Of a DNA stretch of 64,000 nt, positions 1 to 64,000 are shown piece after piece. The notes beneath the pieces were generated by a model. It searched no databases. It was not told the DNA's origin and saw only the letters and a program-made list of their open reading frames with translations. The translations under genes were made by a program, and so were the position numbers. How positions within the stretch are numbered: the stretch's first letter is position 1; the number at the start of each line of letters is the position of its first letter. The stretch lies in the NCBI RefSeq assembly GCF_058153355.1, contig NZ_CM177019.1. One strand, written 5' to 3'.

Positions 1-660
1 TGCAACTTAACGCCCAGTTAAGACTCGGTTTCCCTTCGGCTCCCCTATTCGGTTAACCTTGCTACAGAATATAAGTCGCTGACCCATTATACAAAAGGTA
101 CGCAGTCACCCCATAAAGAGGCTCCCACTGCTTGTACGTACACGGTTTCAGGTTCTTTTTCACTCCCCTCGCCGGGGTTCTTTTCGCCTTTCCCTCACGG
201 TACTGGTTCACTATCGGTCAGTCAGGAGTATTTAGCCTTGGAGGATGGTCCCCCCATATTCAGACAGGATACCACGTGTCCCGCCCTACTCATCGAGCTC
301 ACAGCATGTGCATTTTTGTGTACGGGGCTGTCACCCTGTATCGCGCGCCTTTCCAGACGCTTCCACTAACACACACACTGATTCAGGCTCTGGGCTGCTC
401 CCCGTTCGCTCGCCGCTACTGGGGGAATCTCGGTTGATTTCTTTTCCTCGGGGTACTTAGATGTTTCAGTTCCCCCGGTTCGCCTCATTAACCTATGGAT
501 TCAGTTAATGATAGTGTGACGAATCACACTGGGTTTCCCCATTCGGAAATCGCCGGTTATAACGGTTCATATCACCTTACCGACGCTTATCGCAGATTAG
601 CACGTCCTTCATCGCCTCTGACTGCCAGGGCATCCACCGTGTACGCTTAGTCGCTTAACC
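1..660 (-). rRNA. rrlH: 23S ribosomal RNA, 5' portion (partial, continues beyond window start)
   Basis: Reverse complement of 601-660 reads GGTTAAGCGACTAAGCGTACACGGTGGATGCCCTGGCAGTCAGAGGCGATGAAGGACGTG, the canonical enterobacterial 23S 5' end; lies downstream of 16S/tRNA-Ile/tRNA-Ala on the same strand; ORFs here are spurious. Confidence 0.95.
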
Positions 661-833
661 TCACAACCCGAAGATGTTTCACTTCTGATTGCGAAAATTT
701 GAGAGACTCACGAACAACTTTCGTTGTTCAGTGTTTCAATTTTCAGCTTGATCCAGATTTTTAAAGAGCAAAACTTCGCAGTGAACCTTTGCAGGTACAC
801 TCTGAAGTATTTTTTATTTAATCACTACAGAGA

Positions 834-909
834 TGGTGGAGCTATGCGGGATCGAACCGCAGACCTCCTGCGTGCAAAGCAGGCGCTCTCCCAGCTGAGC
901 TATAGCCCC
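834..909 (-). tRNA. alaV: tRNA-Ala (anticodon UGC)
   Basis: Reverse complement is GGGGCTATAGCTCAGCTGGGAGAGCGCCTGCTTTGCACGCAGGAGGTCTGCGGTTCGATCCCGCATAGCTCCACCA; spacer tRNA of an rrn operon. Confidence 0.97.
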
Positions 910-951
910 ATAACATGTAGTTAAAACCTCTTCAAATTTGCGGTGCAAATT

Positions 952-1028
<77 letters not shown>

Positions 1029-1096
1029 GTAGAGGTTTTACTGCTCATTTTCATCAGACAATCTGTGTGAGCACTGCAAAGCACAGTTCTTTAAGG

Positions 1097-2638
<1,542 letters not shown>

Positions 2639-2762
2639 AAAAGTTTGATGCTCAAAGAATTAAACTTCGTAATGAATTACGTGTTCACTCTTGAGACTTG
2701 GTATTCATTTTTCGTCTTGCGACGTTAAGAATCCGTATCTTCGAGTGCCCACACAGATTGTC

Positions 2763-2782
2763 TGATAAATTGTTAAAGAGCA
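2763..2782 (-). promoter_or_regulatory. rrn leader boxA antitermination element
   Basis: Reverse complement reads TGCTCTTTAACAATTTATCA, matching the boxA consensus TGCTCTTTAACAA, in the 16S leader. Confidence 0.8.
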
Positions 2783-2822
2783 GTTGCGACGCGGCTTTCA
2801 GCTCACTGTCGCGAGGTGGCGT

Positions 2823-2850
2823 ATATTACGCTTTCCTCTTTCAGAGTCAA
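2823..2850 (-). promoter_or_regulatory. rrnH P2 promoter (-35 TTGACT, 16-bp spacer, -10 TAATAT)
   Basis: Reverse complement of 2823-2850: TTGACTctgaaagaggaaagcgTAATAT, upstream of 16S. Confidence 0.75.
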
Positions 2851-2933
2851 CCCTGAATTTCAGGATTTTTTCTCTTCAACCGAACCGGCTGTTTGTGTGA
2901 AGTGATTCACATCCGCCGTGTCGATGGAGGCGC

Positions 2934-10235: not shown

Positions 10236-10340
10236 CCAGCCTCGTCCACAAAATACCGGATGAGGCGTGAGCGCCTTACCCGACCTACAAAATCGTGCTA
10301 ATACAAAATGTTGCATTATTGGCTGTAGGCCTGATAAGCG
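10236..10340. repeat. REP/BIME-type palindromic elements
   Basis: CCGGATGAGGCGTGAGCGCCTTACCCGACCTAC and GCCTGATAAGCGCAGCGCATCAGGC match the GCCGGATG.../GCCTGATGCG... REP consensus family; between convergent yaeF and nlpE. Confidence 0.8.
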
Positions 10341-10384
10341 CAGCGCATCAGGCAATTTTTCGTTTGTTTCTGTCTCAAGACGGA

Positions 10385-41253: not shown

Positions 41254-41285
41254 GGGCAGCACGACGCTGCCCGATTGCTTTCTGG
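41254..41285 (+). terminator. putative terminator after dapD
   Basis: GGGCAGCacgacGCTGCCC followed by GATTGCTTTCTGGTT (moderately T-rich). Confidence 0.55.
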
Positions 41286-41553
41286 TTCAGAATAATTCGT
41301 CCTACTCATTCTTCTTCCCCTTTTTTAAATACTTTTTCATCTTGTTTCGGACTGTCATGTAATTCGCAAAACAAAGATAAATGTGCTAATCCATCCCATG
41401 GAATATCGCCACAATAAAGCAGGTAATTTTTTGATTTTTACGCCATGATAGAAGTCTGGAAGAAAAAGGCTTTCTGCGATCACAGTCGAGCCGGGCGGGC
41501 CAGGCCAAATGCTAAAATAAGCACAATTTACTGACTCATTTTGAGGTAACGCT

Positions 41554-41940: not shown

Positions 41941-41967
41941 TCCCTGACTGACGGTTAGCTCGGGTAG

Positions 41968-41994
41968 TCTCCTCTCCCCTTCGGGGTGAGGAGA
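41968..41994. other. stable stem-loop with UUCG-type tetraloop between convergent yaeH and cdaR (possible bidirectional terminator)
   Basis: TCTCCTCTCCCC-ttcg-GGGTGAGGAGA, imperfect 11-12 bp stem; no strong T-run. Confidence 0.5.
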
Positions 41995-42028
41995 ACAAGC
42001 CTGCCCCGCCTCGACCTTAACGCATAAC

Positions 42029-50766: not shown

Positions 50767-52047
50767 ATGAGTAAGTCTGAAAATCTATACAGCGCAGCGC
50801 GCGAGCTGATCCCTGGCGGTGTGAACTCCCCTGTTCGCGCCTTTACTGGCGTGGGCGGCACTCCACTGTTTATCGAAAAAGCGGACGGTGCTTATCTGTA
50901 CGATGTTGATGGCAAAGCCTATATCGATTATGTCGGTTCCTGGGGGCCGATGGTGCTGGGCCATAACCATCCGGCGATCCGCAATGCCGTGATTGAAGCC
51001 GCCGAGCGTGGTTTAAGCTTTGGGGCACCGACCGAAATGGAAGTGAAAATGGCGCAACTGGTGACCGAACTGGTCCCGACCATGGATATGGTGCGCATGG
51101 TGAACTCCGGCACTGAAGCGACAATGAGTGCCATCCGCCTGGCCCGCGGTTTTACCGGTCGCGACAAAATCATTAAATTTGAAGGTTGTTACCACGGTCA
51201 CGCTGACTGCCTGCTGGTAAAAGCCGGTTCTGGCGCACTCACGTTAGGCCAGCCAAACTCGCCGGGCGTTCCGGCAGATTTTGCCAAACATACCTTAACC
51301 TGTACTTATAACGATCTGGCTTCTGTACGCGCCGCGTTTGAGCAATACCCGCAAGAGATTGCCTGTATTATCGTCGAGCCGGTGGCAGGCAATATGAACT
51401 GTGTTCCGCCGCTGCCAGAGTTCCTGCCGGGTCTGCGTGCGCTGTGTGACGAATTTGGCGCGTTGCTGATCATCGATGAAGTGATGACCGGTTTCCGCGT
51501 GGCGCTGGCTGGCGCGCAGGATTATTACGACGTGGTGCCAGACCTCACCTGCCTGGGCAAAATCATCGGCGGTGGAATGCCGGTAGGCGCATTCGGTGGT
51601 CGTCGTGATGTGATGGATGCGCTGGCCCCAACCGGTCCGGTCTACCAGGCGGGTACGCTTTCCGGTAACCCGATTGCGATGGCAGCCGGTTTCGCCTGTC
51701 TGAATGAAGTCGCGCAGCCGGGCGTTCACGAGACGCTGGATGAGCTGACAACACGTCTGGCAGAAGGTCTGCTGGAAGCGGCAGAAGAAGCGGGAATTCC
51801 ATTGGTCGTTAACCACGTTGGCGGCATGTTCGGTATTTTCTTTACCGACGCCGAGTCCGTGACGTGCTATCAGGATGTGATGGCCTGCGACGTCGAGCGC
51901 TTTAAGCGTTTCTTCCATATGATGCTGGACGAAGGTGTTTACCTGGCACCGTCAGCGTTTGAAGCGGGCTTTATGTCTGTGGCGCACAGCATGGAAGATA
52001 TCAATAACACCATCGATGCTGCACGTCGGGTGTTTGCGAAGTTGTAA
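50767..52047 (+). CDS. hemL: glutamate-1-semialdehyde 2,1-aminomutase
   Basis: 426-aa ORF; recognised as HemL. Confidence 0.96.
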
Positions 52048-52053
52048 TGATTT

Positions 52054-52082
52054 TGCCTCGCCCACCGGGCGAGGCATTTTAT
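52054..52082. terminator. bidirectional terminator between convergent hemL and fhuB
   Basis: TGCCTCGCCC-acc-GGGCGAGGCA (10-bp stem) followed by TTTT; the whole intergenic region is only 34 bp. Confidence 0.8.
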
Positions 52083-58261: not shown

Positions 58262-60796
58262 TTAATTACTACCAAACATATCCTTGATCCAACCTGCTAC
58301 GCCGTCACTGTCTTTCTGCTCTTGCTGAGCAGGTTGCTGTTGCGGTTGTTGCTGCGGCTGAGAAGACTGATCAAACGGATTGCCTGACGGTTGCTGCTGA
58401 ATCTCACTCTGCTGGCACAGCGATTGCGGATCGCTGGTCCAGACCGGCAAGACACGCATGCCACCGCTGCAAACAAAGTTGCCGTCGTAGTCCACGCCCA
58501 TATCTGCAATATCTTCTGGTGGAACAAGATTCAGCGGTGTTGGTGTCTGGTTAGCCAGATAACGCTGATAAATCGACATTGCCCCACTGGCACCATACAG
58601 TTTGGTCGGCTGGTTGTTATCACGGCCTACCCAGGTGATGGTCACCGTGCTGCCGTCAATGCCCGCAAACCAGGTATCCACGTTGTTGTTGGTAGTCCCG
58701 GTTTTGCCCGCCAGATGCAGGTTCGGGTATTTCGCCCCAAGCTGACGACCCGTACCGCGTTGTACCACCTGCTGCATGGTCCATAGTGTCAGATACGCCG
58801 CCTGCGCCGGAACCGCGCGTTCCGCCTGCGGGAAGCTCTGATACAACACCTTGCCATCTTCCGCGATTACCGAACGCAGCGCAGAAAGCGGTGCTCGGTT
58901 ACCACCGCTGGCGATGGTCTGGAACGCCTGCGCCACTTCAATTGGCGTTAAGTTCAACGCCCCCAGCAGCATTGCCGGAACCGGATGCAGCTGATCTTTC
59001 GGTACGCCCAGTTTAATCCAGGTATCCGTAACCGCAGGCAGCCCCAACGCCATCCCCAGATTTACCGTCGGCACGTTCATCGAACGAGTCAACGCATCCA
59101 CCAGCATCACTCTGCCACTTTCGCTATAACGACGATCATCGTTCTGCGGTGACCAGACCTGGCCATTCGGCTGACGCAGCGCGATTGGCGCATCGGCAAT
59201 CCACGTGTTCAGGCGATAGATTTTCGGCTGGCTTAAGGCCGTCAGATAAGTCGCTGGTTTTGCAAGGGAACCAATCGAACGACGCGCCTGCATCGCACGG
59301 TTGTAACCTGCAAACTGCGGCTCAGAACCACCAACCATCGCACGAACTTCACCACTAAAGCGGTCGACGACCACAATTGCCGTTTCCAGATCGCTTAACT
59401 TACGCTGTTTCTTCAGTGCCGGAATGCCTTCCACGGCGGCTTTTTCCGCCGCGTCCTGAGCCACCGAGTCAAAGGTAGTGAAGATCTTCACGCCGGAGAG
59501 ATCTTTTACCTTATCGCCTAATTTCGCCTGCAGCTCCTGACGCACCAGTTGCATAAAGGCTGGCTGTGGAGAGATTACCCCACCACGCGGCTGAACCCCC
59601 AGCGGACGTGCACTCAACATGTCATAGAGCTCTTGATCAATAATCTGCTGTTGTTGCAGCAGACGCAGCACCAGGTTACGTCGCTCCAGCGCCAGTTTCG
59701 GGTTACGCCACGGGTTGTAGATCGACGCCCCTTTCACCATACCAACCAACAGCGCCTGCTGGTCGAGACTCAGCTCTTCTACCGGGCGACCAAAGTAGTA
59801 CAGGCTCGCCAGCGGGAAACCGCGGATTTCGTTGTCGCCGCTCTGACCGAGATACACCTCGTTCATATACAGCTCAAGAATGCGGTCTTTGCTGTAACGC
59901 GCATCCATGATCAGCGCCATGTAGGCTTCGTTCGCTTTACGCCAGTAAGAGCGCTCGCTGGAGAGGAACAGGTTCTTCACCAACTGCTGGGTCAGCGTAC
60001 TGGCCCCCTGTACCGTACGACCTGCCATCAGGTTCGCCAGCACGGCACGGCCAATGGAATAGAGACTGATCCCATCATGCTCGTAGAAATGACGGTCTTC
60101 AGTCGCCAACAACGTATCCACCAGCAAGTCAGGGAACCCACTGCGCGGCACAAACAGACGCTGCTCACCGTTTGGTGAAGAGATCATGGTGATCAGGCGC
60201 GGATCAAGACGGAAGAAACCGAACTGACGGTTGTTCTCCATATTGACGATGGTCGCCAGATGATCACCATCAAAAGTCAGACGCGCACGTACCTGCCCTT
60301 CTTTACTGTCCGGGAAATCAAACGGACGGCGGATCATTTCAATGCTGTTGGCCTGCACGGTAAATTCGCCAGGGCGCGTCATTTTCGACACCTGACGATA
60401 CTGGGTCGCCTCCAGCAGCTTCACCATCTCGTTTTTGCTGATGGTCATGTCTGGCTCAAGGTTGACCATTCGGCCATAAACAGCCGCAGGCAATTGCCAG
60501 ACTTTGCCATCAATACGGCTACGAATTTTTTGATCGAGATAAACACCGTAAATGGCGATCAGCACGGCAAAAACGATAGCCAGTTTTAGCAGCAGCCATA
60601 GCCAGCCGCGTTTGCCACGAGGCTTACGCCCTTTGCCTTTGCCCTTACCTTTGCGCGGCATCGGTTCTTCATCCTCATAGTCATCATAATCGTCGTAATC
60701 ATCGTCATCTTCGTAACGACGACGGCTTACCTTTTGTTTGACCGGACGCGTCGGTTTCCCTTTGCGTCCAATTGGCTCGCGGTCATTCCCGGCCAT
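58262..60796 (-). CDS. mrcB: penicillin-binding protein 1B (bifunctional glycosyltransferase/transpeptidase)
   Basis: ORF track 58262-60811; recognised PBP1b starts [18 protein letters not shown] (844 aa). Confidence 0.95.
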
Positions 60797-60889
60797 GCTT
60801 TTTCTCCGCAATATTCAGGCGCAAAAGCCCGATTTTCTGTTCTTCTGTAACAAGACAGAAGAAGATATCTCTCAAATTTACTTTGGTCT

Positions 60890-63184
60890 TCATGAATACT
60901 TTTTCGTCCGTCGCGTCGGTGCGGTATTTGCCGGATCATCCGGCCAGACGTGTTTGGGATAACGCCCTTTCATTTCTTTTTGCACCTCGCGATACGCTCC
61001 TTTCCAGAAGGCACTCAAATCTCGTGTGATTTGCAGCGGCCTTTGGGCAGGAGAAAGCAACTCCAGCACCAGCGGCACACGCCCCTGGGCGATCGTCGGA
61101 TTGGTGGCCTCGCCAAACATCTCCTGCATTCTCACCGCCAGCGCGGGCGGGTTATCTTCATGGTAACGAATGGCGATCCGGCTTCCCGTCGGCACAGTGT
61201 AATGCGCAGGCAATTCACTATCCAGACGTTGCTGCATCCCCCAATCAAGTAATCCGCGTAGCGCCTGATAAATATCGAGTGATTTCAGGCCGCGTAGCGA
61301 ATGTACGCCTGCCATATGCGGCAGTAGCCACGTTTCCAGCGTCGCCAACAAACTTTCATCATCAACCGCTGGCCAGTCATATTCTGGCAACCACCTGGCG
61401 GCGCATAACAAACGCAAGCGTAGCTGTTCCGCTTCCGGCGTCCAGTTAAGCACGCTTAAGCCTTTATCACGAACGCCGTTAAGCATCGCCTGATGCAGCT
61501 CGTCTTCTGAAGGCTTCGCCAGCGGCTGCACTTTTACCGTCAGTTGACCAATTTGCAACCGACGCCAGGCTTTCAGCGTACCTTGCGCATCATCCCACTC
61601 CACGGTGTCCGATTGCTGCACCAGCTGCGGACAGCGTTGCACTAATTCATCGATATCGACCGGTAGCGCCAGTAAAATCCGCGCATCCGGCGAGGCGCTA
61701 CCCTGCAATAATAACGGTGCGATAAGCGAACTGTCTGCCTCACCGCCGCGTACGTTTAAGCGCTTTAACAGTTGCTGGCTACGTTGCTGCCAGGCAGGTT
61801 GATTGCGCGAAAACGCCACGCCCAGATCGATATTGCCCATCCGTGGTGGCTCTTCGAGAATAGCGGCAATTTTTGCAGCGGTAGCAGCTTCGTCGTCGCT
61901 CTTTACGCTCACCAGCATTGCCGCTAAACGCGGATCGTTACCCAGCGTCGCCATTTTCTGCCCTTTCGTGCTTAGCCGTTCACCGTCCATCGCCCCCAGC
62001 ATCCGCAACAGGCGTTTCGCGGCCTGTAAATTCACGGCTGGCGGTTGATCCAGCCAGCTCATCTGCGCCGGATCGCTGCATCCCCATTGCAGTAATTCCA
62101 TCAGCAAACCGGAAAGATCGCTTTGTAAGATCTCCGGTTCACTTTGTGCGGCAGCGCGTTCTGCTTGTTCTTTGGCGATTAAATGCAGGCAGATACCCGG
62201 CTCCAGACGCCCGGCACGCCCGGCACGCTGCGTCATCGACGCCTGACTGATTCGCTGAGTAATCAACCGCGTAAGTCCTGTACGCGGATCAAAACGCGCC
62301 ACCCTTTCCTGGGCGCAATCCACCACCAGACGAATACCTTCGATGGTTAAACTGGTTTCAGCAATATTGGTTGCCAGCACCACTTTGCGCATCCCTTCTG
62401 GTGCCGGAAGGATCGCTTTTCGCTGATCGTTCAGCGACAACGCGCCATACAGCGGGCAGAGCAACACATCACTACCGATGCGCGAAGCCAGTTGTTCCTG
62501 AACGCGCTGAATTTCTCCGACACCAGGTAAAAATAACAGTAATGAGCCGCTTTCCTGATGCAGCAATTCGGCGGTGGCAACCGCCACGGCTTCATCAAAA
62601 CGCTGATGAGCGAGCAGCGGTAAATATCGGCGTTCAACCGGAAATGAGCGCCCTTCTGAGATGACGACGGGCGCTTCTGGCAGCATCTGCTGCAAGCGGT
62701 CATTGTCCAGCGTAGCCGACATAATCAGTAGTTTAAGGTCATCACGCAGACCTTGTTGCACATCGAGTAACAGCGCCAACGCCAGATCCGCCTGCAAGCT
62801 GCGCTCATGAAACTCATCGAGGATCACCAATCCAACGCCGCTCAGTTCAGGGTCACGCTGGATCATGCGCGTCAACACGCCTTCGGTAACTACTTCCAGG
62901 CGAGTATTTGGCCCGACACAGTTTTGCGCGCGCATCCGGTAGCCTACCGTATCACCTGTTTTTTCGTTAAGCAGTTCCGCCAGTCGTTGCGCAACGTTAC
63001 GCGCCGCCAGGCGACGCGGCTCCAGCAGGATAATTTTTCCGTTAATGCCGGGATGCGCCAGCAGTTGCAGCGGCAGCCAGGTTGATTTCCCGGCCCCGGT
63101 CGGCGCACTTAATAACACCTGCGGTGCACCATCGAGGGCAGCAAGTAACTCAGGTAAGACGACGGCAACGGGCAACGACGACAC
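60890..63184 (-). CDS. hrpB: ATP-dependent RNA helicase HrpB (DEAH-box); appears about 45 codons shorter than the K-12 reference I recall
   Basis: ORF track 60890-63229 (779 aa from ATG); recalled HrpB start (M)SSLPVAVVLPELLAAL corresponds to the GTG at 63182-63184, giving 764 aa; motifs GAGKST, DEFH, SAT present. Confidence 0.85.
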   Translation of the reverse strand: MSSLPVAVVLPELLAALDGAPQVLLSAPTGAGKSTWLPLQLLAHPGINGKIILLEPRRLAARNVAQRLAELLNEKTGDTVGYRMRAQNCVGPNTRLEVVTEGVLTRMIQRDPELSGVGLVILDEFHERSLQADLALALLLDVQQGLRDDLKLLIMSATLDNDRLQQMLPEAPVVISEGRSFPVERRYLPLLAHQRFDEAVAVATAELLHQESGSLLLFLPGVGEIQRVQEQLASRIGSDVLLCPLYGALSLNDQRKAILPAPEGMRKVVLATNIAETSLTIEGIRLVVDCAQERVARFDPRTGLTRLITQRISQASMTQRAGRAGRLEPGICLHLIAKEQAERAAAQSEPEILQSDLSGLLMELLQWGCSDPAQMSWLDQPPAVNLQAAKRLLRMLGAMDGERLSTKGQKMATLGNDPRLAAMLVSVKSDDEAATAAKIAAILEEPPRMGNIDLGVAFSRNQPAWQQRSQQLLKRLNVRGGEADSSLIAPLLLQGSASPDARILLALPVDIDELVQRCPQLVQQSDTVEWDDAQGTLKAWRRLQIGQLTVKVQPLAKPSEDELHQAMLNGVRDKGLSVLNWTPEAEQLRLRLLCAARWLPEYDWPAVDDESLLATLETWLLPHMAGVHSLRGLKSLDIYQALRGLLDWGMQQRLDSELPAHYTVPTGSRIAIRYHEDNPPALAVRMQEMFGEATNPTIAQGRVPLVLELLSPAQRPLQITRDLSAFWKGAYREVQKEMKGRYPKHVWPDDPANTAPTRRTKKYS

Positions 63185-63257
63185 AAAACGCTCCAGAGGG
63201 TTAACATTCTTCGCGCCACATTGTAGCATCGCGGTAATGCATAACCGAGTACCTCAC

Positions 63258-64000
<743 letters not shown>

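What the first reader, a model, noticed from the sequence alone, without database searches (positions are those of the whole stretch)
60890..63184. hrpB appears about 45 codons short, in frame, with the junction at a repeated LIAPLL motif
The HrpB reading frame here is 764 aa from the GTG start (779 aa from the upstream ATG). My recollection of E. coli K-12 HrpB is 809 aa. The translation reads ...RGGEADSSLIAPLL-LQGSASPDARILL... with the join encoded at 61706-61732 (minus strand AGT TCG CTT ATC GCA CCG TTA TTA TTG CAG GGT). In the reference as I remember it, a 45-residue segment (roughly AGAFADRIARRRGQDGRYQLANGMGAMLDANDALSRHEWLIAPLL) lies between two LIAPLL motifs, a geometry typical of short-direct-repeat deletion. 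The missing piece would fall in the C-terminal auxiliary region after HA2 in DEAH helicases, so the protein could be stable but functionally altered. The frame is otherwise intact.
Basis: partly seen in the sequence, partly recalled or inferred. Interest (0 to 1): 0.45.

Follow-up and report, generated by a model that had tools for sequence, protein, structure and literature searches.

The report
Recurrent in-frame deletion in E. coli hrpB
This E. coli strain's hrpB gene, an RNA-dependent ATPase of unknown role, has lost exactly 135 bases between two short repeats, which removes most of one RNA-binding domain; the same loss arose independently in two other E. coli lineages, but it is a rare and probably inactivating variant, not a new system.

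Summary
hrpB (window 60890-63184, minus strand) encodes 764 aa instead of 809 because 135 bp are missing in frame.

- **Junction.** In the closest full-length relative the lost segment lies between two perfect 12-bp direct repeats (ATCGCACCGTTA, coding IAPL of two LIAPLL motifs). The window keeps one copy, at 61712-61723.
- **Real, not an artefact.** The identical protein and DNA occur in NCBI and Logan assemblies. It is the only indel inside a coding sequence across the 64 kb.
- **Rare.** None of 5,424 complete E. coli genomes lacks the segment.
- **Recurrent.** The same 135 bp are missing from two other hrpB alleles, one O157:H7 and one O26/O111/O103-like. Each is otherwise identical, or one SNP different, to full-length alleles of its own lineage. 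That makes three independent events.
- **Mechanism (inferred).** Misalignment between short direct repeats during replication.
- **Consequence.** A confident AlphaFold model (pLDDT 95.4) shows the deletion removes most of the last helical-bundle helix and strands 1-3 of the five-stranded OB domain, including M519-D521. The segment is present in all 147 diverse homologues and holds near-invariant residues. HrpB is therefore probably crippled, which is tolerable because hrpB mutants show no known phenotype.

Interest is low to moderate.

The parts
60890..63184 (-). hrpB coding sequence carrying the 135-bp in-frame deletion: 764 aa plus stop, GTG start at 63184 as annotated in relatives
   Evidence: The protein is identical to NCBI EGO8350420.1 / HFG3507804.1. 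It passes the NCBIfam HrpB equivalog (1390 bits, cut-off 1053), but in two stretches.
61712..61723 (-). The single retained copy of the 12-bp direct repeat ATCGCACCGTTA. This is the deletion junction; the crossover lies somewhere within it.
   Evidence: The closest full-length allele (L001) has two perfect copies 135 bp apart.
61709..61726 (-). Codons of the single remaining LIAPLL motif. Full-length HrpB has two, at residues 487-492 and 532-537.
62693..63136 (-). RecA1 domain (Pfam DEAD, residues 17-164), intact, with motif I GAGKST and motif II DEFH
62204..62569 (-). RecA2 domain (Pfam Helicase_C, residues 206-327), intact
61634..61723 (-). Remnant of the OB domain: strands 4 and 5 and the following helix (full-length residues 533-562, which are residues 488-517 here). 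Strands 1-3 are missing.
   Evidence: (secondary structure of the full-length model) mapped through the alignment
61520..61624 (-). Connector region (Pfam CON_HrpB, residues 521-555 here), intact
60932..61330 (-). HrpB C-terminal domain (Pfam HrpB_C, residues 619-751 here), intact
63227..63229 (-). Upstream in-frame ATG that would give 779 aa. It is not the start used in annotated relatives, and the 779-aa product is not in the protein collection.
58262..60796 (-). mrcB (PBP1b, 844 aa), the downstream neighbour, intact. Conserved synteny.
63258..63788 (+). thpR (RNA 2',3'-cyclic phosphodiesterase, 176 aa), the divergent upstream neighbour, intact. Conserved synteny.

Best explanation
This is a real, rare, naturally occurring allele of E. 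coli hrpB. A 135-bp segment (codons about 488-532) was lost by misalignment between two short direct repeats 135 bp apart, most likely strand slippage during replication. The repeats exist because the peptide LIAPLL is encoded twice in enteric HrpB. One repeat copy and everything between the two copies were removed, which leaves the frame intact.

Shown: the deletion, its exact endpoints within the repeat, its presence in independent assemblies, and its independent recurrence on three allelic backgrounds.

Inferred: the slippage mechanism, and the consequence. The protein loses most of the last helical-bundle helix and three of the five OB-domain strands, which form one wall of the RNA tunnel. 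It therefore probably cannot form the OB barrel and is inactive or badly impaired as an RNA-dependent NTPase. I put that at about 65%. The allele is tolerated because loss of hrpB has no known phenotype in E. coli.
For: - **Deletion and repeat geometry.** On the window-like allele the LIAPLL pair is the best short-range direct repeat in the whole gene (12/12 exact, in frame).
- **No filler at the junction.** The O26-like deletion allele equals its parent minus 135 bp exactly. The O157 deletion allele equals its parent minus 135 bp plus one distant SNP.
- **Not an artefact.** The identical protein is under two NCBI accessions and on 5 contigs. A Logan assembly of SRR8656992 and GCA_043012465.1 both show 0 mismatches to the window over 6,111 nt. 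It is the only intragenic indel in 64 kb compared with the closest complete genome.
- **Derived state.** All 5,424 complete E. coli genomes keep the inner 123 bp. All other Escherichia and Citrobacter HrpB are 805-824 aa. All 147 diverse homologues keep the segment.
- **Independent recurrence.** The three deletion alleles differ from each other by 84-168 nt in hrpB and by 39-134 nt in the 3-kb flank, and each matches full-length alleles of its own lineage.
- **Structure.** The AlphaFold model has pLDDT 95.4 and pTM 0.87, and matches 6EUD/6HEG and other DEAH/RHA helicases. It shows helix 485-495, strands 500-503, 509-512 and 517-519, helix 525-528, and strands 531-539 and 546-553.
- **Conservation inside the deletion.** A495 95%, R499 94%, R504 89%, Y/F510 99%, G515 99%. 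PMC8325345 places M519/L520/D521 in the OB domain at the RNA-tunnel entrance.
- **Dispensability.** PMC7237152 reports that hrpB mutants of E. coli and P. aeruginosa show no phenotype.
Against: - On the O26-like background the repeat is only 10/12, with a 5-bp exact core. It is one of about 20 comparable in-frame pairs, so repeat quality alone does not explain why the same deletion arose there.
- No secondary structure in the single-stranded DNA brings the repeats together (z = +1.36).
- Loss of function is not demonstrated. The RecA core, connector and C-terminal domain are intact, and engineered P. aeruginosa HrpB truncations lacking the accessory domains keep ATPase activity (PMC7237152).
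- Changes on the window's branch show no significant relaxation of constraint: 4 nonsynonymous to 7 synonymous, p = 0.11.
- The immediate full-length parent of the window's allele has not been sampled.
- All carriers are short-read draft assemblies.
Confidence: 0.72

Rival explanations
1. The product is the same but the route differs. The deletion arose by repair of a double-strand break through microhomology-mediated (alternative) end-joining, not by replication slippage. In the enterohaemorrhagic lineages the IS-excision enhancer protein, which has such an activity, could have helped.
For: The exact microhomology at the junction is short on two backgrounds, 9 bp and 5 bp, which is in the range used by end-joining. 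Two of the three backgrounds are O157:H7 and O26/O111/O103-like. The IS-excision enhancer of enterohaemorrhagic E. coli performs microhomology-mediated end-joining in vitro (PMC9943667).
Against: There is no insertion sequence at or near the site in any of the loci. Three breaks would have to be resected to exactly the same pair of microhomologies among many alternatives. The window-like allele has a perfect 12-bp repeat only 135 bp apart, the classic slippage substrate. I did not check for the enhancer gene in the carrier genomes.
Confidence: 0.12
2. The deletion is a selected, functional remodelling of HrpB. Removing the OB wall changes which RNAs stimulate the enzyme, and the variant was favoured independently in three lineages.
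For: The same in-frame deletion occurs on three backgrounds. These were the only large internal-deletion variants of Escherichia HrpB among the top hits of the protein search. On the O26-like allele the repeat is not an outstanding slippage substrate. Deleting the accessory domains of P. aeruginosa HrpB changes RNA preference, giving poly(U)-stimulated ATPase (PMC7237152). The O26-like allele is on 8 contigs, so it is transmitted.
Against: The allele is extremely rare: 0 of 5,424 complete genomes, and no hits among species-representative genomes or metagenome contigs. The two deletion alleles whose parents are sampled (O157 and O26-like) differ from them by 1 and 0 substitutions, so they are very recent and have not spread. 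The deletion removes near-invariant residues and three of five strands of a barrel, and no natural family member lacks them. The survey is biased: only in-frame deletions large enough to break out of a 90% cluster are visible.
Confidence: 0.08
3. The deletion is an assembly or sequencing artefact caused by collapse at the short repeat.
For: Every carrier is a short-read draft assembly and none of the complete genomes has it. I could not inspect raw reads.
Against: A 12-bp repeat, 10/12 on one background, is shorter than any assembler k-mer. The identical junction appears in assemblies from different pipelines (a GenBank submitter assembly, an NCBI third-party assembly and Logan) and on 5, 2 and 8 contigs for the three alleles. 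No other intragenic indel occurs in the 64-kb window.
Confidence: 0.03
4. There was only one deletion event, and a small recombination patch carried it into the other lineages.
For: E. coli hrpB alleles are mosaic. Between the window and L001, 22 of the 40 differences cluster in gene positions 873-1117.
Against: Lineage-specific SNPs lie within about 25 nt to the left of the junction and 6 nt into the retained repeat. Any shared patch between the O157 and O26-like alleles would have to be shorter than about 31 bp. Each deletion allele matches its own lineage's parent everywhere else.
Confidence: 0.02

Closest known systems
E. coli K-12 HrpB (809 aa; crystal structures 6EUD and 6HEG), a DEAH/RHA-type RNA-dependent NTPase
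   Same: It is the orthologous gene, in the same thpR-hrpB-mrcB neighbourhood, about 96-97% identical in protein. The RecA1, RecA2, connector and C-terminal domains are all present.
   Different: The window's protein lacks residues about 488-532. That is most of the last helical-bundle helix, OB strands 1-3 and a short helix, including M519-D521.
Spontaneous deletions between short direct repeats in E. coli, such as the classic lacI deletion hotspots (Farabaugh 1978, Albertini 1982; reviewed by Lovett 2004). Cited from my own knowledge.
   Same: The endpoints lie in short direct repeats, one copy is retained, the junction has no filler, and the best and closest repeat pair is favoured.
   Different: This is seen in natural isolates rather than a selection experiment. 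It recurs on a background where the repeat is only 10/12 with a 5-bp exact core.
Engineered accessory-domain truncations of P. aeruginosa HrpB (1-365, 1-628, 1-702; PMC7237152)
   Same: Both remove accessory-domain material and leave the RecA core. This suggests that residual ATPase with altered RNA preference is possible.
   Different: Those are clean C-terminal truncations at domain borders. Here an internal piece is cut out of the middle of a beta-barrel, and the connector and C-terminal domain are left attached to the remnant.
E. coli HrpA OB-domain 'stacking triad' mutants (FP655/6AA; PMC8325345)
   Same: They affect the same structural site, the OB surface at the entrance of the RNA tunnel. 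HrpB M519/L520/D521 are the equivalent positions.
   Different: Those are point substitutions in a folded OB domain of an active helicase. Here the whole region is deleted from a protein for which no helicase activity has been shown.

Membership tests
HrpB (NCBIfam equivalogs NF008662 / TIGR01970) | Whole-protein score above the curated cut-off | tested here: met
   1390 bits against a cut-off of 1053, and 1169 bits against 546
HrpB (NCBIfam equivalogs NF008662 / TIGR01970) | One continuous end-to-end match to the family profile | tested here: not met
   The match is in two stretches, the first ending at profile position about 495. The full-length relative matches 1-812 in one stretch.
HrpB (NCBIfam equivalogs NF008662 / TIGR01970) | RecA1 and RecA2 core with the GAGKS/T and DEFH motifs, plus the HrpB-specific connector and C-terminal domains | tested here: met
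   Pfam DEAD, Helicase_C, CON_HrpB and HrpB_C are all found, and the motifs are visible in the translation.
HrpB (NCBIfam equivalogs NF008662 / TIGR01970) | Complete five-stranded OB domain between the helical bundle and the connector | tested here: not met
   Strands 1-3 (residues 500-519) and helix 525-528 of the full-length model fall inside the deleted residues 488-532.
HrpB (NCBIfam equivalogs NF008662 / TIGR01970) | Conserved enterobacterial neighbourhood thpR - hrpB - mrcB | tested here: met
HrpB (NCBIfam equivalogs NF008662 / TIGR01970) | RNA-stimulated NTPase activity | not testable with these tools
   This needs purified protein.
Short-direct-repeat (slipped-misalignment) deletion | Both endpoints lie in a direct repeat in the undeleted parent | tested here: met
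   The repeat is 12/12 in L001, 11/12 (9 exact) in O157 and 10/12 (5 exact) in the O26-like allele.
Short-direct-repeat (slipped-misalignment) deletion | Exactly one repeat copy plus the intervening sequence is lost, with no filler bases | tested here: met
   Parent minus 135 bp reproduces the O26-like deletion allele exactly, and the O157 deletion allele apart from one distant SNP.
Short-direct-repeat (slipped-misalignment) deletion | The repeat pair is among the longest and closest in the gene | tested here: inconclusive
   It ranks best in the gene on the window-like allele and in the top five on O157. On the O26-like allele it is not outstanding, although its spacing is the second shortest among the in-frame pairs spaced 90-600 bp.
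Short-direct-repeat (slipped-misalignment) deletion | Replication-dependent and RecA-independent formation | not testable with these tools
   This needs genetic assays.

The most novel reading that the evidence does not exclude
The OB-less HrpB is a stable, working enzyme with altered RNA preference, and it has been favoured convergently in three E. coli lineages, two of them Shiga-toxin-producing. That would make this junction a recurrent adaptive switch and not a neutral scar. It would also give the first natural handle on what HrpB does.
Probability: 0.07. Interest if true: 0.55.

Novelty: new member of a known kind. Interest (0 to 1): 0.25.

Why it matters
The practical value is modest.

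- **Annotation.** The allele is named as an ordinary intact 'ATP-dependent helicase HrpB' because it still passes the family model, although it lacks most of a domain. In-frame domain losses can slip past pseudogene filters in this way.
- **A fragile site maintained by protein constraint.** A peptide motif conserved at two places in a protein (LIAPLL in enteric HrpB) creates a standing fragile site in the DNA. Synonymous differences set the length of the repeat (12, 9 or 5 exact bases). Only 16 of 5,423 complete genomes carry the perfect 12-bp version, and the window's lineage belongs to that family.
- **A natural experiment.** The function of HrpB in E. coli is unknown. Natural isolates that carry an OB-deleted version could be compared with near-isogenic full-length relatives.

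Tried and rejected
- **Hairpin-assisted slippage.** I folded the 177-nt region of the full-length allele as single-stranded DNA. It showed no structure beyond shuffled controls (z = +1.36), so I rejected this idea.
- **Immediate full-length parent of the window's allele.** I looked up four reconstructed 809-aa candidates by exact sequence. None is in the collection.
- **Junction pattern scans.** The species-representative genomes and the metagenome contigs both gave 0 hits.
- **Counting genomes that retain the segment.** Megablast undercounted (4,393) because the segment is polymorphic. The blastn mode gave 5,424.
- **Pfam coverage of the deleted segment.** No Pfam model covers it even at E = 10, and a PDB sequence search of the region reaches only HrpB itself. 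Domain assignment therefore came from the literature and the structure model.
- **First AlphaFold run.** A shallow alignment of 18 sequences at 86% identity or more gave pLDDT 38.9. I discarded that model and reran with 148 diverse sequences.
- **Relaxed-selection test on the window's branch.** The counts were too small: 4 nonsynonymous to 7 synonymous, p = 0.11.
- **RNA and promoter scans.** Rfam found nothing in hrpB or in the deleted segment. Promoter and terminator matches were at chance level.
- **Literature.** A search for this deletion found nothing. I also found no reported E. coli hrpB phenotype.
- **Model coordinates.** They are not exposed to scripts, so I could not measure the distance between the two joined residues.
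Full report
**Observation.** The minus-strand ORF at 60890..63229 translates to 779 aa from the upstream ATG. Annotated relatives start at the GTG corresponding to window 63184, which gives 764 aa. E. coli K-12 HrpB in the solved structures 6HEG and 6EUD is 809 aa. Every one of the 5,424 complete E. coli genomes that has hrpB spans 2,475 bp where the window spans 2,340 bp. A DNA alignment with the closest relative (L001, 98.3% identical) and a typical E. coli allele (L002, 94.9%) shows one clean 135-bp gap and nothing else.

**Anatomy of the junction.** In L001 the missing segment lies between two perfect copies of ATCGCACCGTTA, 135 bp apart. The window keeps one copy, at 61712-61723. On that allele this is the best short-range direct repeat in the whole gene and one of only two exact 12-mers repeated anywhere in it. 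About 0.09 such repeats within 600 nt would be expected by chance. The repeat exists because the peptide LIAPLL is encoded twice. In an alignment of 148 HrpB sequences, the duplicated peptide is found only in the Escherichia and Citrobacter members, and more distant homologues have unrelated residues at the two positions. The fragile site is therefore a lineage-specific accident maintained by protein-level constraint. Synonymous differences set how long the exact DNA match is: 12 bp on the window-like allele, 9 bp in O157:H7, and 5 bp (10 of 12 overall) in typical and O26-like alleles. Only 16 of 5,423 complete genomes carry the copy-1 context that makes the repeat perfect.

**Is the deletion real?** The exact 764-aa protein is already in NCBI under two accessions, EGO8350420.1 and HFG3507804.1, named 'ATP-dependent helicase HrpB'. 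It is encoded on five contigs. These include a Logan assembly of run SRR8656992 and the NCBI assembly GCA_043012465.1, and both are identical to the window over 6,111 nt. A 12-bp repeat is far shorter than assembler k-mers. Compared with the closest complete genome across the whole 64 kb, this is the only indel inside a coding sequence. The others are rRNA-operon microheterogeneity, intergenic repeat-element differences and one whole-gene presence/absence difference. I could not inspect reads, so a small residual doubt remains.

**Direction of change.** The short form is derived. All complete E. coli genomes retain the inner 123 bp (the first megablast attempt undercounted). E. albertii, E. 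marmotae and Citrobacter HrpB are 805-824 aa. All 147 diverse family representatives have 41-64 residues aligned to the segment.

**Recurrence.** A search of 5.8 billion protein clusters found two further 764-aa HrpB proteins, P0004 (E. coli O157) and P0005. Both lack exactly the same 45 residues and 135 bp. The three deletion alleles differ from one another by 84-168 nt within hrpB, by 39-134 nt in the upstream 3 kb, and in the length of the hrpB-mrcB spacer. The O157 deletion allele equals full-length O157:H7 hrpB minus 135 bp plus one distant SNP. The other equals full-length hrpB of O26/O111/O103 strains minus 135 bp exactly. Lineage-specific SNPs lie within about 25 nt of the junction and inside the retained repeat, so a shared recombination patch is excluded. 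These are three independent and, in two cases, clearly very recent events. The alleles are rare. They are found in 0 of 5,424 complete genomes. They are on 5, 2 and 8 contigs in the whole collection. There are no hits in the species-representative genomes or in metagenome contigs.

**Mechanism.** The geometry has three features: endpoints in a direct repeat, one copy retained, and no filler bases. This is the signature of misalignment between short direct repeats, classically replication slippage (established knowledge: lacI deletion hotspots; Lovett 2004). On the window-like and O157 alleles, the quality of the repeat explains the choice of site. On the O26-like allele it does not. There the pair is 10 of 12 with a 5-bp exact core, one of about 20 comparable in-frame pairs, although its spacing is the second shortest. 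If all such pairs were equally likely, three events at the same pair would have a probability of roughly 0.002. Some site preference therefore remains unexplained. Hairpin assistance is not supported. The remaining candidates are: ascertainment, since only in-frame deletions large enough to fall out of a 90% cluster are visible; an unsampled ancestor with a better copy 1; microhomology-mediated end-joining (PMC9943667); or tolerance or selection of this particular product.

**Consequence for the protein.** Pfam still finds the DEAD, Helicase_C, CON_HrpB and HrpB_C domains, and no Pfam model covers the deleted part. The NCBIfam HrpB equivalogs still pass, but in two stretches, which explains why the allele is annotated as intact. 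A first AlphaFold run with a shallow alignment failed (pLDDT 38.9). With 148 diverse sequences the full-length model is confident (pLDDT 95.4, pTM 0.87). It matches the HrpB crystal structures and the helicase cassettes of HrpA, DHX15, Prp43, Prp2 and Prp22. In that model the region reads: helix 485-495 (holding the first LIAPLL), strands 500-503, 509-512 and 517-519, a short helix 525-528, strand 531-539 (holding the second LIAPLL), strand 546-553, and then the three-stranded connector. The deletion therefore removes most of the last helical-bundle helix and strands 1-3 of a five-stranded OB domain, leaving only the strand 4-5 hairpin. PMC8325345 places HrpB M519, L520 and D521, all deleted here, at the positions equivalent to the RNA stacking triad of HrpA at the tunnel entrance. 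The segment includes some of the most conserved accessory-domain positions in the family: A495, R499, R504, Y/F510 and G515, at 89-99%. I infer that the OB barrel cannot form and that RNA-dependent activity is lost or badly impaired. This is an inference, not a result. The RecA core could keep some ATPase activity, as engineered P. aeruginosa truncations do (PMC7237152). A test for relaxed constraint on the window's branch was uninformative. Loss would be tolerated, because hrpB mutants of E. coli and P. aeruginosa show no phenotype in the conditions tested (PMC7237152).

**Comparison and verdict.** The gene is a member of the HrpB family by score, motifs and neighbourhood, but it fails two features: one continuous profile match and a complete OB domain. 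The event is a new instance of a well-known kind of mutation. The points of interest are its exact recurrence in three lineages, the protein-motif origin of the fragile site, and the fact that annotation treats the product as intact. I found no paper describing it. Interest is low to moderate. The most novel reading still open is convergent selection of a working OB-less HrpB, at about 7%.

Noticed in passing
window 41274-41403: The whole yaeI gene (phosphodiesterase, 813 bp) is absent. About 130 nt of unrelated sequence sits between dapD and yaeH where the closest complete genome has 844 bp. Judging from span lengths, some other E. coli also lack it, so this looks like a presence/absence polymorphism.
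   Followed up: partly
window 62068-62312 (hrpB gene positions 873-1117): Of the 40 differences between the window's hrpB and its closest full-length relative, 22 cluster here. Their patterns are shared alternately with other E. coli alleles, which is the signature of a recombination patch in a mosaic gene.
   Followed up: no
whole window; flank of L003 vs L005/L006: The window's lineage is unusually divergent for E. coli. It is at most 98.5% identical to any of 5,424 complete genomes over 24 kb, and about 4% different from O157 and O26-like strains in the dksA-sfsA-thpR flank. Its hrpB allele type is shared by only about 18 complete genomes.
   Followed up: partly
window 61708-61737, minus strand: The deletion brings CAGACA and TATTAT together with an 18-nt spacer, a weak sigma-70-like match (9 of 12) inside the gene. 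Such matches are at chance level in this region: 3 found against 1.7 +/- 1.2 expected.
   Followed up: no
window 60797-60889; L005 5296-5490; L006 5296-5426: The hrpB-mrcB spacer is 93 nt here and in typical E. coli. It is 195 nt in O157 and 131 nt in the O26-like strain, because of extra palindromic GGGAGAGGG-type repeat elements that I take to be boxC-like (from memory, not tested). PMC10869245 mentions a 68-aa ORF 'between mrcB and hrpB' in MG1655 that affects curli expression. I did not locate it.
   Followed up: no
window 1-2866: The window starts inside an rRNA operon (end of the 23S rRNA, tRNA-Ala, tRNA-Ile, then 16S rRNA, by comparison with the relative). Several 1-5-nt indels relative to the closest genome are typical of differences between rRNA operon copies.
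   Followed up: no
window 10238-10383, 41942-42026, 52046-52080: Intergenic length differences from the closest complete genome at yaeF-nlpE (146 vs 20 nt), yaeH-cdaR (85 vs 50 nt) and hemL-fhuB (35 vs 158 nt). These are probably repeat-element gain or loss.
   Followed up: no
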